DNA of 64,000 nt, from assembly GCA_963663895.2 (NCBI GenBank), contig CAXXRD010000005.1:32001-96000 (forward strand), given 5' to 3'. Positions within the stretch are counted from its first letter, which is position 1. Every line of letters starts with the position of its first letter. Shown piece after piece: positions 9,132-11,627 of the stretch. This DNA is from Dehalococcoidia bacterium. GTDB taxonomy: Bacteria; Chloroflexota; Dehalococcoidia; Bin125. The position numbers were made by a program, and so were the translations under genes. Below the pieces are notes generated by a model that was not told the origin of the DNA, did not search any database, and saw nothing but the letters and a program-made list of their open reading frames with translations.

Positions 9132-9974
9132 CTAGCTTGGCGTCCAGGTCACGAGCACGATGGTATCCACCGGCCCTTTGAGCGCGTAGCCGTCGTCGCG
9201 CGCGACAAGATGATCGCCGATCACCTGTCGCAACAGACGCGCTTTATCCGATCCTGCACGCAGCCACAGCCGCCGGCGGGCATCGCTGGTCGCCGCCTCC
9301 CACGAGTCGAAGCCCCAGGCACGTTCGGTGATCTTTCGCAGCGCGGGGCGACGGCCGCGCGCTTCCAATAGACGCAGGAACTCAGGCAGCGCCGGCAACG
9401 GCGCGTAGGGCGATCCGTGGACGGCCTTCCACAAGCCTGCGAACGCTGCTCCCGGTGCGCGATCGAGCAGGAGCGCGACGCAAAGCCGTTTCGCCGCCGC
9501 CTCGAACGCTTCAAGGAAAGGGCCGATCGCCTCAACGTCGTAGCCGACGTGGGTGATCAACGCGACGTCCGCTTGCAGCGCGCGCTGGAGGGGCCAGCGT
9601 TCGCCGATCAGATCGAGGTTCTCGATGCCGTGCTGGGCGCGCACCTCCTCCAGCACCGTCCGCATCGCCTCACTGGGCTCGACGGCGACGACCCGCCGGA
9701 CATGGCGGGCCAGCGCCAGCGTGAAGCGGCCGCCTCCTGCGCCGACATCAAGCCAGGTCTCCTGGGGCTGCGCCAGCGCCAGCAGGGCGTTAAGGCAGGC
9801 ATCGTCCCTGCGGGTGGGATCGGCACGGAATCTCTCGGCGATGGGTGCGTAGAAGTCACTGCCGTCGTCCCGCTCGGCGAGGCGCTCCACCTGTGCGTTG
9901 TTGGCGCGCACGCGGGCTCTCCAGTCGGCGAGGCAGAGCGGGTAGTCCGGCATGCTTGTGCTCCCGCTGGTCAT
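9132..9974 (-). CDS. Class I SAM-dependent methyltransferase
   Basis: WLDVGAGGG motif I and VVAVEPS; start approximate. Confidence 0.85.
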   Translation of the reverse strand: MTSGSTSMPDYPLCLADWRARVRANNAQVERLAERDDGSDFYAPIAERFRADPTRRDDACLNALLALAQPQETWLDVGAGGGRFTLALARHVRRVVAVEPSEAMRTVLEEVRAQHGIENLDLIGERWPLQRALQADVALITHVGYDVEAIGPFLEAFEAAAKRLCVALLLDRAPGAAFAGLWKAVHGSPYAPLPALPEFLRLLEARGRRPALRKITERAWGFDSWEAATSDARRRLWLRAGSDKARLLRQVIGDHLVARDDGYALKGPVDTIVLVTWTPS

Positions 9975-10084
9975 TCGATTGCCCGCCCTGCGGCGGCCGG
10001 CCCGGCGAGCGGAGATGCGCGACTCCACTGACGCGACCGCGCTACGGTAAGGGGGCGGCTCAGCTACAATTACTGGAGCATCTT

Positions 10085-10999
10085 ATGCATCCCGACTTGC
10101 ATCTCGACAAGCCTCCGCCACTGCGCACGCCCGCCATGATCCTGGCCTGGGGCGGCTGGAGCGACGCGGGCAGTGCCGCCACTCATGGCCTCCGTACGCT
10201 GGCCAACGCCATCGACGCGCAGCCCTGCGGGTCCATCGACCCGGAGAACTACTACGACTTTTCCGTGACGCGGCCGTTCGCCCGCTACCGCGATGGGGAG
10301 CGGGAGATCGTCTGGCCCAGCACGGACTTCTACTACGGCGCGCCGGCCGACGCCGATCGCGACTTGGGCATCGCCATCGGCTCCGAACCGGCCAATCGCT
10401 GGCGAAGCTACACGGAGGCGCTGTTTGACGGGGTGGAGGCCTTCGGCACCGAGCTGGTCATCTCACTGGCGGCGGTCGCCGCGCCCGTCCCCCATACGCG
10501 GCCCGTGGTGGTCTGGGGTGCCGCCAACACGGCTGCGCTGGCGGAGAAACATAACATGCAGCCCCCTGCTTACGAAGGGCCGACCGGCATCGTCGGCGTC
10601 TTCCACGACTACTGCCGTCGCAAAAGCGTCGGCGCGATCAGTCTCTGGGCGAGCGTGCCCCACTATCTCGGCGACACCACGAATCCCGTCGGATCACTGG
10701 CGTTGCTCGAGCGTCTGCAGAAGGTCCTCGATCTGCCCCTCCCGCTCGCCGGGCTGCGCTCGGAGATTTCGCAGTTCCAGGAACAGGTCGACCGTGCGAT
10801 CGCTCGTGACGATGACCTCGCCTCCTATGTGCGCCGCCTGGAATCGTCCGGCAGCCAGCTCGCCTCCTTCGAACCGCCCGCGCCGCGTTCGGAGGAACTG
10901 CCTCCGGCCGAGTCGCTGATCGAGGACTTGGAGCAGTTCCTGCGTGGCACCCAGCAAGATGGCTCCTCACAGCAAGAAGGCGAGCCTCGCGGTGGTTGA
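10085..10999 (+). CDS. PAC2 (proteasome assembly chaperone-like) family protein
   Basis: GWSDAG, PHTRP, YEGPTGIVG and WASVPHY motifs; GGAG SD before ATG 10085. Confidence 0.88.
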   Translation: MHPDLHLDKPPPLRTPAMILAWGGWSDAGSAATHGLRTLANAIDAQPCGSIDPENYYDFSVTRPFARYRDGEREIVWPSTDFYYGAPADADRDLGIAIGSEPANRWRSYTEALFDGVEAFGTELVISLAAVAAPVPHTRPVVVWGAANTAALAEKHNMQPPAYEGPTGIVGVFHDYCRRKSVGAISLWASVPHYLGDTTNPVGSLALLERLQKVLDLPLPLAGLRSEISQFQEQVDRAIARDDDLASYVRRLESSGSQLASFEPPAPRSEELPPAESLIEDLEQFLRGTQQDGSSQQEGEPRGG

Positions 11000-11492
11000 T
11001 GTCCCCAGCGCCGACGACCACAAAGAGGCTTCCGAGAAAAGCCTCAATAAGATGTGGAAATTCGTCCGTTCCTACGCGGAGAAGAGCGGTACTTTTCTGC
11101 ACCCCCAGCCCGAGATCACCGAGGCGCTGGTGATCGGTCTCGCCAAGCATGTGGATGAGTTTGGGCGGCCCCTCTGTCCCTGCAACTTTTACGAGGACAA
11201 GGCGGAGGAAGTTAAATCATCGACCTGGATCTGCCCGTGCGACGAGATGCAGAAGTGGAAGTACTGCCACTGACTGCTCTTTTGCGATCCGGAAGGTCTT
11301 CCGATCACCGAGTACCTCCCCAAAGACCACGAAGGCCGTGAGATCTATGGGGTGATTCGGGACCCGACGCCCGACAAAGGGCGGGCGATCGGGAGGCTGC
11401 AGGAGAAGACGGGCCGCACGATTCAGAAAAAGAAGCGGGGAGAGGAAAAGAAGCGAGGAGATAGCGAGAGCGTCAAGGACTCGGGCGGCTAA
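10992..11492 (+). CDS. Ferredoxin:thioredoxin reductase catalytic subunit, probable selenoprotein (Sec at TGA 11271-11273)
   Basis: PLCPC...ICPC...YCH-TGA-LLF matches the family CPC/CPC/CHC-LLF pattern; the frame stays open for 72 codons to TAA 11490-11492; start approximate. Confidence 0.85.
11286..11306 (+). promoter_or_regulatory. Candidate bacterial SECIS hairpin
   Basis: GATC-CGGAA-GGTC-TTCCG-ATC stem-loop with AGGTCT apex 21-26 nt after the TGA; the E. coli fdhF SECIS has the same apex sequence. Confidence 0.75.
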
Positions 11493-11627
11493 ACGGCCGT
11501 GCTCGGTCCGTCGGTTGCGCTGAGGGTGCTTCGCTTGCTTGCTCGGGGTCGCGCCCCGCCGCTACTCTGAGCCGTAATCAGTCACGCGCCGGACGAGCAG
11601 CGGGCCGCGCGGCATCGGGATGGAGCT

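What the first reader, a model, noticed from the sequence alone, without database searches (positions are those of the whole stretch)
10992..11492. Hidden selenoprotein: ferredoxin:thioredoxin reductase with CH-U at the catalytic site, plus a SECIS hairpin
Seen: the ORF track stops at ...CPC...CPC...KYCH, but the TGA (11271-11273) sits exactly where the family has the last Cys of CHC. The frame continues as LLFCDPEGLPITEYLPKDHEGREIYG... for 72 codons to TAA 11492. A hairpin CGGAA-GGTC-TTCCG lies 17-30 nt downstream, with the AGGUCU apex also found in the E. coli fdhF SECIS. Known: in FTR the final Cys of CHC is the active-site disulfide residue that contacts the 4Fe-4S cluster. Inference: Sec replaces it, giving a selenenyl-sulfide/Fe-S site, with a C-terminal extension and no variable subunit nearby. 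Sec-FTRs have been predicted from metagenomes, but I know of no biochemical characterisation, and standard annotation would truncate this gene.
Basis: partly seen in the sequence, partly recalled or inferred. Interest (0 to 1): 0.88.

Follow-up and report, generated by a model that had tools for sequence, protein, structure and literature searches.

The report
Selenocysteine ferredoxin:thioredoxin reductase homolog
This gene for a small iron-sulfur disulfide reductase reads an apparent stop codon as selenocysteine at its active site; it is a real hidden selenoprotein, but one of a kind first predicted in 2008.

Summary
An FtrB/FTR-catalytic-subunit gene (start ATG 10959 or GTG 10992, stop TAA 11490-11492) carries an in-frame TGA (11271-11273) exactly where the family has the last Cys of CPC-x16-CPC-x8-CHC. 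The 72 codons after it are strongly conserved in Cys-bearing homologs. A bulged hairpin with a GGUC loop (11286-11306) follows the TGA. It is kept in TGA-bearing relatives with compensatory changes and is lost in Cys forms. The genome has selA, selB, a Sec-containing selD and tRNA-Sec. In a scan of 301 genomes of the same class, 42 of 64 full-length loci have TGA at this codon, including 18 of 18 in the window's family. Independent contigs from three studies show no difference at the codon.

It is not new in kind. Sec-FTR was predicted from ocean metagenomes in 2008, reviews of 2022 and 2026 list it (CxU), and NCBIfam has a double-Sec FtrB model, which this protein does not reach.

Three points go beyond the finding. 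The Sec/Cys state changed at least 4 times on the tree. One Cys form keeps a fossil SECIS. This genome and 9 of 17 family relatives show no NADPH thioredoxin reductase, so Sec-FtrB may be their main thioredoxin reductase. The 'C-terminal extension' is family-wide, not Sec-specific. No biochemistry exists.

The parts
10959..11492 (+). Sec-containing FtrB (ferredoxin:thioredoxin reductase catalytic-subunit homolog) coding sequence, read through the TGA. Alternative in-frame starts are GTG 10944 and GTG 10992. The stop is TAA 11490-11492.
   Evidence: Translation with TGA=U. Pfam PF02943 at 90.4 bits against a cut-off of 22. PDB FTR catalytic chains at E 2e-25. AF2 model with pLDDT 84.7, whose best Foldseek hits are FTR catalytic chains.
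11175..11183 (+). First CPC motif. By homology these are a cluster ligand Cys and the exposed redox-active Cys (Cys55/Cys57 in Synechocystis numbering, which is recalled).
   Evidence: Invariant in 60 of 60 aligned homologs. Aligned to the CPC of the PDB chains.
11232..11240 (+). Second CxC motif, here CPC (two cluster ligands by homology).
   Evidence: Both Cys are invariant. The middle residue is Pro in 25 of 42 Sec forms. It is Ala in the other 17 Sec forms and in all 22 Cys forms.
11265..11273 (+). The C-H-U triplet. TGA 11271-11273 is read as selenocysteine in place of the last Cys of CHC.
   Evidence: Aligned to an invariant Cys in 59 of 59 Cys homologs in A2 and in the PDB chains. TGA at this codon in 42 of 64 loci across the class.
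11286..11306 (+). Bacterial-type SECIS: an 8-bp helix with one bulged C (11289/11290) and a GGUC tetraloop (11295-11298).
   Evidence: In 30 distinct Sec loci, 90.4% of cells are paired against 83.7% in shuffles (0 of 500 reach it) and 25-64% when slid. Three pairs show changes on both sides. Synonymous sites are frozen in Sec forms and free in Cys forms. The loop is the same as in E. coli fdhF.
11274..11408 (+). Conserved post-Sec segment of about 45 codons, shared with the Cys homologs of this bacterial clade.
   Evidence: Nearly invariant columns up to residue 148. pLDDT is 83-96 over residues 111-150. The codon-position diversity pattern is that of coding sequence.
11409..11489 (+). Lys/Glu/Gly-rich, poorly conserved tail.
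   Evidence: No conservation in A1 or A2. pLDDT is 61-69.

Best explanation
The gene encodes a single-subunit homolog of the ferredoxin:thioredoxin reductase catalytic chain (FtrB). UGA 11271-11273 is decoded as selenocysteine by SelB and tRNA-Sec, directed by the GGUC-loop hairpin at 11286-11306.

Shown here:
- The UGA sits at the last Cys of the CPC-x16-CPC-x8-CHC signature.
- Translation must continue past it.
- The SECIS is conserved in Sec forms only.
- The Sec machinery is present in the genome.

Inferred from the solved FTR mechanism (recalled from Dai et al. 2000 and 2007, which the papers read here cite):
- Four Cys (78, 97, 99, 108 in the numbering) hold a 4Fe-4S cluster.
- Cys80 and Sec110 form a selenenylsulfide next to the cluster.
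- The first electron from ferredoxin breaks this bond. Selenium attaches to a cluster iron, and Cys80 attacks the thioredoxin disulfide.
- The second electron frees the selenolate. It resolves the mixed disulfide and releases reduced thioredoxin.

Selenium would therefore act as the cluster-contacting, resolving residue.

This genome has one canonical WCGPC thioredoxin and no detectable NADPH thioredoxin reductase. The enzyme is thus likely the main, perhaps the only, thioredoxin reductase of the cell (inferred).
For: - Family and site. Pfam FeThRed_B scores 90.4 bits. PDB FTR catalytic chains score E 2e-25 to 2e-21, with the TGA aligned to the CHC Cys. The AF2 model has pLDDT 84.7, and Foldseek's top hit is 7bzk_A (TM 0.74 normalised to the target, rmsd 1.8 over 89 columns).
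- Read-through. 2282 homologs were found. Full-length Cys forms conserve about 45 residues past the site. Third-position diversity after the TGA is 0.493, against 0.217 and 0.166 at positions 1 and 2.
- Recurrence. TGA occupies this codon in 42 of 64 full-length loci from a 301-genome class scan, and in 18 of 18 loci in the window's family. One of the 42, L039, comes from the unpublished genome G244; without it the count is 41 of 63.
- SECIS. The hairpin is absent from 12 of the 13 Cys forms with the standard spacer. It is retained in L053 (TGC), whose sister L056 has TGA.
- Machinery. selA, selB, selD (with 1 in-frame TGA) and tRNA-Sec with anticodon TCA are present.
- Not an assembly error. 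Contigs of runs X3, X4 and X10, from three studies, span the site without change.
- TGA is otherwise a stop. The upstream PAC2 gene ends at TGA 10997-10999, and many relatives' FtrB genes end in TGA.
- Physiological role. The genome has one WCGPC thioredoxin. Its best TIGR01292 match is 47.9 bits against a cut-off of 343. TrxB-like genes occur in 279 of 301 class genomes, but none was found in G000 or in 9 of the 17 other genomes of its family, including one-contig assemblies.
Against: - There is no direct evidence of selenium incorporation, of a 4Fe-4S cluster, or of ferredoxin or thioredoxin as partners.
- The RNA run that was laid does not bridge the TGA.
- G000 is 91% complete, so the absence of TrxB and of the variable subunit is 'not found', not proven.
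- Eight of 17 family relatives, and most FtrB-bearing genomes of other families, do have a TrxB-like gene. FtrB is therefore not a general replacement for TrxB.
- The protein scores only 40.3 bits against NCBI's curated Sec-FtrB model (cut-off 160).
- Related PDB entries are ferredoxin:disulfide reductases with other partners (4tpu, 7pwe), so the substrate could be something other than thioredoxin.
- Folding energy of the hairpin alone is not significant.
Confidence: 0.9

Rival explanations
1. It is a Sec-containing ferredoxin-dependent disulfide reductase, but thioredoxin is not its substrate. It would instead reduce another disulfide protein or small disulfide, as proposed for the archaeal FDR and the glutaredoxin-FDR fusion.
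For: PDB relatives include 4tpu (M. acetivorans ferredoxin-dependent disulfide reductase) and 7pwe (glutaredoxin/FDR fusion). No thioredoxin or ferredoxin gene lies next to the gene; its neighbours are PAC2, ribosomal protein S14 and an ABC transporter. Most FtrB-bearing genomes in the class also keep a TrxB-like gene.
Against: It is much closer to true FTR catalytic chains (E 2e-25, 47% identity, rmsd 1.8) than to FDRs (E 4e-9 and 3e-3, 22-25% identity). G000 and 9 of its 17 family relatives show no TrxB-like gene yet do have a thioredoxin.
Confidence: 0.2
2. The TGA is a true stop or a pseudogene lesion. The product would be a 94-109-residue truncated protein lacking the last active-site residue, and the downstream frame would be untranslated.
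For: Table 11 reads it so. Public databases hold a 104-residue truncated entry at 93% identity (P0060). The single-sequence hairpin energy is not significant.
Against: The downstream frame is open and conserved in 42 of 42 TGA-bearing loci, with a coding pattern of substitution. The TGA falls on an invariant catalytic Cys. The SECIS shows covariation, and the full Sec machinery is present.
Confidence: 0.02
3. The UGA is read through, but mostly as Cys or another residue rather than Sec (for example under selenium scarcity). The working enzyme would then often be the ordinary CHC form.
For: Nothing here measures which residue is inserted. Sec/Cys interconversion is evolutionarily easy in this family, with at least 4 changes on the tree, which shows both forms are viable.
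Against: A dedicated SECIS is maintained under selection in Sec forms only. The cell keeps selA, selB, selD and tRNA-Sec.
Confidence: 0.05

Closest known systems
Sec-containing ferredoxin-thioredoxin reductase predicted from the GOS metagenome (Zhang & Gladyshev 2008, PMC2398784), listed as 'CxU' in reviews PMC9312934 and PMC13188914
   Same: Same protein family (COG4802/FtrB). Sec replaces a redox-active Cys of the active-site disulfide. Same CxU motif, and a bacterial SECIS directly downstream.
   Different: The GOS report rested on 2 reads, one of them with two Sec, and called the family rare. Here the gene is single-Sec, sits in a near-complete genome with the Sec machinery, and is the majority state in a 301-genome class sample (42 of 64 loci). 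I read passages and tables only. Figure 6A and Dataset S2 are not held, so I could not compare the sequences directly.
NCBIfam NF041072 'FtrB family double-selenoprotein'
   Same: An FtrB-family selenoprotein, and the only NCBIfam model hit.
   Different: It scores 40.3 bits against a cut-off of 160. The first CPC keeps Cys, so there is one Sec, not two. It is not a member of that equivalog.
Heterodimeric FTR of cyanobacteria and chloroplasts (PDB 1dj7, 2pu9, 7bzk)
   Same: The catalytic-chain fold and the full six-residue CPC/CPC/CHC signature with identical spacing; 43-47% identity over about 88 residues.
   Different: Sec stands in place of the cluster-contacting Cys. No variable subunit (PF02941) was found in the genome. 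There is a conserved C-terminal segment of about 45 residues beyond the canonical chain. The host is a non-photosynthetic member of the class (homologs are named Dehalococcoidia), and near-identical DNA occurs in sponge and coral metagenome runs.
E. coli fdhF SECIS
   Same: A hairpin starting a few codons after the UGA, with a GGUC apical loop and a bulged pyrimidine on the 5' side of the stem.
   Different: The loop lies 3 nt further from the UGA, the lower stem is shorter, and the flanking sequence differs.

Membership tests
FTR catalytic subunit / FeThRed_B (PF02943) | Profile match above the curated threshold | tested here: met
   90.4 bits against a cut-off of 22, residues 33-117.
FTR catalytic subunit / FeThRed_B (PF02943) | CPC-x16-CPC-x8-CHC signature (4 cluster ligands and 2 redox-active residues) | tested here: met
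   All spacings are identical to PDB FTR chains. The last Cys is encoded by TGA (Sec).
FTR catalytic subunit / FeThRed_B (PF02943) | Catalytic-chain fold | tested here: met
   AF2 pLDDT 84.7. Foldseek hit 7bzk_A at E 8e-7, TM 0.74 normalised to the target, rmsd 1.8 over 89 columns.
Heterodimeric FTR (photosynthetic type) | Partner variable subunit (PF02941) | tested here: not met
   No match in G000 (91% complete), while the control Synechococcus genome is hit.
FTR (functional) | 4Fe-4S cluster and ferredoxin-dependent reduction of thioredoxin | not testable with these tools
   Inferred from conserved ligands only.
Bacterial selenoprotein gene | In-frame UGA aligned to Cys in homologs, with conservation on both sides | tested here: met
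   22 of 64 class loci have TGC or TGT at the same codon.
Bacterial selenoprotein gene | SECIS hairpin immediately 3' of the UGA, with G-containing apical loop | tested here: met
   Window 11286-11306. The hairpin is absent in Cys forms except the recent convert L053. No Rfam family matched.
Bacterial selenoprotein gene | selA, selB, selD and tRNA-Sec in the genome | tested here: met
   All are over their curated cut-offs. Anticodon TCA.
Bacterial selenoprotein gene | Selenium in the protein | not testable with these tools
   Needs 75Se labelling or mass spectrometry.
NF041072 FtrB double-selenoprotein | Score over the equivalog cut-off, and two Sec (both redox-active positions) | tested here: not met
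   40.3 bits against 160. The first CPC is TGT-CCC-TGC with no second TGA.

The most novel reading that the evidence does not exclude
In a family of sponge- and coral-associated Dehalococcoidia, the single-subunit Sec-FtrB may be the cell's only thioredoxin reductase. Thiol redox homeostasis in a non-photosynthetic bacterium would then run entirely on ferredoxin, through an iron-sulfur cluster that makes a transient Fe-Se bond. The Sec form would have been gained or lost several times because selenium tunes this cluster-coupled disulfide chemistry.
Probability: 0.35. Interest if true: 0.6.

Novelty: new member of a known kind. Interest (0 to 1): 0.4.

Why it matters
Standard annotation truncates this gene: a 104-residue entry at 93% identity sits in public databases. 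The redox enzyme is therefore mis-recorded in many Dehalococcoidia genomes.

The comparative set assembled here consists of 42 Sec and 22 Cys orthologs. It includes a Sec/Cys sister pair in which the Cys form keeps a fossil SECIS. That makes a ready natural experiment on why selenium replaces sulfur at a residue that binds an Fe-S cluster. No Sec-FTR biochemistry turned up in the library searched.

If the lack of TrxB in this family holds, the enzyme would be central to the cell's thiol metabolism rather than an accessory.

Tried and rejected
- Co-evolution of Cys at +4 with Sec. 35 of 42 Sec forms have Cys four residues after the Sec, against 1 of 22 Cys forms. On the tree this Cys arose once, in a clade of 36. 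Two other Sec lineages (L057 and a clade of 6) lack it. The independent-pairs test has only 2-4 pairs. There is therefore no evidence of co-evolution. The AF2 model puts residues 113-114 in an extended bridge, which does not suggest contact with residue 110, and no coordinates were available to measure it.
- Single-sequence folding of the region. It is not better than shuffles.
- Rfam scan of 11150-11450. It gave only chance-level hits, E 0.57-3.2.
- Genome-wide scans for other TGA-plus-hairpin selenoprotein candidates. They returned 4364 raw candidates (1065 after a nearby-Cys filter), and 258 with a second, stricter loop rule. The output is noise in a GC-rich genome, so I dropped them. I did not determine the selenoproteome of the genome.
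- RNA evidence. Contigs of run X19 cover 10952-11086 and 11494-11600, with adapter-like loose ends, and do not bridge the TGA. RNA libraries can also hold DNA. Transcription across the site is therefore not shown.
- Complex prediction (FtrB with thioredoxin). Not run: an enzyme-substrate pair resembling solved structures would pass by likeness.
- The search of protein representatives, the protein-atlas search and the search for related loci. Not used, because the family was already clear.
- Twelve of the 76 matching genomes gave only split or partial matches with no TGA inside. I did not fetch or examine them.
- Supplements are closed and figures are not held. I therefore could not see GOS Figure 6A or 7 or Dataset S2 to compare the published Sec-FTR sequences and SECIS with this one.
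- A literature search for bacterial FTR together with Chloroflexi and 'variable subunit' found 0 papers. Balsera et al. 2013 is known to me only through citations in PMC9025218.

Full report
**What is there.** On the + strand an ORF ends, under table 11, at TGA 11271-11273 after ...KYCH. Read with TGA=U, the frame runs on for 72 codons to TAA 11490-11492. Possible in-frame starts are GTG 10944, ATG 10959 and GTG 10992. A close relative in public data starts at the equivalent of 10959, and more distant full-length homologs start near the equivalent of 10992. The start is therefore not settled.

The protein matches Pfam FeThRed_B (PF02943, 90.4 bits, cut-off 22). It also matches the solved catalytic chains of plant and cyanobacterial ferredoxin:thioredoxin reductase (E 2e-25 to 2e-21). 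Those alignments place the TGA on the last Cys of the CPC-x16-CPC-x8-CHC signature, and all spacings are identical. An AlphaFold2 model built on 60 homologs has mean pLDDT 84.7. Its best Foldseek matches in the PDB are the same FTR chains (7bzk_A: TM 0.74 on the target, rmsd 1.8 over 89 columns, 47% identity). Two ferredoxin-dependent disulfide reductases follow at a distance (4tpu, 7pwe).

**Is the TGA read through?** Four independent lines say yes.

- Downstream conservation. A database search gave 2282 homologs. The full-length ones (about 135-175 residues) have Cys at the site and conserve about 45 further residues, with many invariant columns up to residue 148.
- Recurrence in relatives. 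In a six-frame scan of 301 genomes of the same class, 76 had a match. I examined all 64 full-length loci, one per genome. The other 12 genomes gave only split matches without an internal TGA and were not examined.
  - 42 of the 64 have TGA at this codon.
  - 13 have TGC or TGT with the standard spacer.
  - 9 have TGC plus an insert between the first two motifs.
  - All 18 loci of the window's own family have TGA.
  - One of the 42 (L039) comes from the unpublished genome G244. Without it the count is 41 of 63.
- Coding pattern after the TGA. Among the 42 TGA-bearing loci, nucleotide diversity in codons +13 to +45 is 0.217, 0.166 and 0.493 at codon positions 1, 2 and 3. That is the pattern of a translated sequence.
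- Independent assemblies. Contigs from three other studies (runs X3, X4, X10) span the site with 2-6 differences over about 600-700 bases. None of the differences falls at 11271-11273.

TGA is an ordinary stop elsewhere. The upstream PAC2 gene ends at TGA 10997-10999, and many relatives' FtrB genes themselves end in TGA. A recoded genetic code is therefore not the explanation.

**SECIS.** This is an 8-bp helix with one bulged C and a GGUC tetraloop at +25..+28 from the U of UGA.

Folding energy alone is not significant (z -0.3 to -0.9). The same is true of the proven E. coli fdhF SECIS, which I read from NC_000913.3 (z -0.67). That element has the same GGUC loop at +22..+25 and a bulged U.

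The comparative evidence is good.

- In 30 distinct TGA-bearing sequences, the helix is paired in 90.4% of cells. Column shuffles give 83.7 ± 1.1% (0 of 500 reach the observed value), and sliding the 3' partner by 1-3 columns gives 25-64%.
- Three pairs change on both sides: 16-36, 18-34 and 19-33. Pair 19-33 shows G-C in 20 sequences, U-G in 6 and C-G in 3. It links the first base of one codon to the wobble base of a Pro codon four codons later.
- The codons for E-G-L-P are almost frozen at synonymous sites in Sec forms. The same amino acids are written with varied codons in Cys forms.
- The one exception is instructive. L053 has TGC but keeps the hairpin, and its sister L056 has TGA. This looks like a recent Sec-to-Cys switch with a fossil SECIS.

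The structure was derived from these sequences, and the sequences are related, so the shuffle counts are not probabilities. No Rfam family matched.

**Machinery.** The genome (2.37 Mb, 5 contigs, 91% complete) has the following, all above curated cut-offs:

- selA, 498 bits;
- selB, 327 bits, with its C-terminal part in the same frame;
- selD, 359 bits, with its own in-frame TGA;
- tRNA-Sec, 71 bits, anticodon TCA.

**What it most likely does.** By homology, four Cys bind a 4Fe-4S cluster, and Cys80 and Sec110 (numbering) form the redox-active pair beside it. In the solved FTR mechanism (recalled from Dai et al. 2000 and 2007, which the papers I read cite), the residue replaced here plays two roles. 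It attaches to a cluster iron after the first electron, and it resolves the enzyme-thioredoxin mixed disulfide after the second. Selenium at that position implies a selenenylsulfide resting state and an Fe-Se intermediate. This is inference; nothing here measures it.

The context points to thioredoxin as the substrate. The genome has one canonical WCGPC thioredoxin. It has no NADPH thioredoxin reductase: the best TIGR01292 match is 47.9 bits against a cut-off of 343. Across the class, a TrxB-like gene is found in 279 of 301 genomes. It is not found in G000 or in 9 of the 17 other genomes of its family, several of which are single-contig assemblies.

Against a simple 'replacement' story, 8 of 17 family members and most FtrB-bearing genomes elsewhere have both enzymes. 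No variable subunit (PF02941) is present. The literature reports that this subunit is restricted to oxygenic phototrophs (PMC9025218, passages read).

**Evolution.** A maximum-likelihood tree of the 64 proteins, with the Sec/Cys column masked, needs at least 4 Sec/Cys changes. Well-supported branches alone force at least 2. The window's protein sits in a supported clade of 17 sequences, all Sec. The tree is unrooted, so gains cannot be told from losses. The exception is the L053 case, where the fossil SECIS indicates loss.

**Known or new.** Sec-containing FTR was reported from the GOS metagenome in 2008. That report had two sequences, one with Sec at both redox-active positions (PMC2398784; abstract and passages read). 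Reviews of 2022 and 2026 list it as a CxU selenoprotein (PMC9312934, PMC13188914; table passages read). NCBIfam holds NF041072, the 'FtrB family double-selenoprotein'. The window's protein does not reach that model's cut-off (40.3 against 160 bits) and has a single Sec.

Searches for 'ferredoxin-thioredoxin reductase' with 'selenoprotein' found only these three papers. A broader search added nothing on biochemistry, so I found no experimental characterisation in the library searched. The finding is therefore a genuine, well-supported member of a known but uncharacterised selenoprotein family.

Four observations here go beyond what I could find in print:

- the Sec form is prevalent in this class;
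- the Sec/Cys state has switched repeatedly;
- the SECIS shows covariation;
- TrxB is missing from part of the window's family.

I could not see the supplementary data of those papers.

**Verdict.** Novelty: new member of a known kind. Interest: 0.4.

Noticed in passing
G000:C2:665290-665824 (locus L088 1266-1812, - strand): The genome's only canonical thioredoxin gene (108 aa, WCGPC) lies about 140 nt upstream of the tRNA-Sec gene on the same strand.
   Followed up: partly
G000, whole genome; class scan: No NADPH thioredoxin reductase (TIGR01292) was found in G000 (best 47.9 bits against a cut-off of 343) or in 9 of the 17 other genomes of its family. By contrast, 279 of 301 class genomes have a TrxB-like match.
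   Followed up: partly
G000:C2:752950-753168 (locus L086 about 1462-1760, - strand): A second, divergent FTR-like small ORF (Pfam FeThRed_B, 24.3 bits). Its motifs are CPC, CVC and CFC with different spacings and no His. It sits between a CoaBC-like gene and a leucyl-aminopeptidase-like gene; those two names are my reading of the sequences, not a tool result.
   Followed up: partly
G000:C2:564495-565427 (locus L010): selD itself carries an in-frame TGA in its N-terminal Gly-rich motif, so it is a Sec-containing SelD.
   Followed up: partly
L053 (TGC) and L056 (TGA), same genus: This sister pair differs in Cys versus Sec at the active site. The Cys form still carries the GGUC hairpin, an apparent fossil SECIS.
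   Followed up: yes
window 11283-11285 (Cys114) and homologs: Cys lies four residues after the Sec in 35 of 42 Sec forms, against 1 of 22 Cys forms. It arose once on the tree, so no co-evolution can be claimed.
   Followed up: yes
window 11235-11237 and homologs: The middle residue of the second CxC motif is Pro in 25 of 42 Sec forms. It is Ala in the other 17 Sec forms and in all 22 Cys forms. Phylogenetic independence was not tested.
   Followed up: no
L069, L073, L078-L084: Nine Cys-form orthologs, mostly from one family of the class, carry an insert between the first CPC and the second CxC motif.
   Followed up: no
window 9845-10999 and 10944-10999: The upstream PAC2-family gene ends at TGA 10997-10999. 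It overlaps the 5' end of the FtrB frame whichever start is used. The two genes may be translationally coupled.
   Followed up: no
window 10900-11600 in public runs: Near-identical DNA (0.68-1.00 of sampled words) is held in 18 runs of 12 studies, several of them labelled sponge or coral metagenome. The same metagenomes also hold related Cys-form and Sec-form FtrB contigs.
   Followed up: partly
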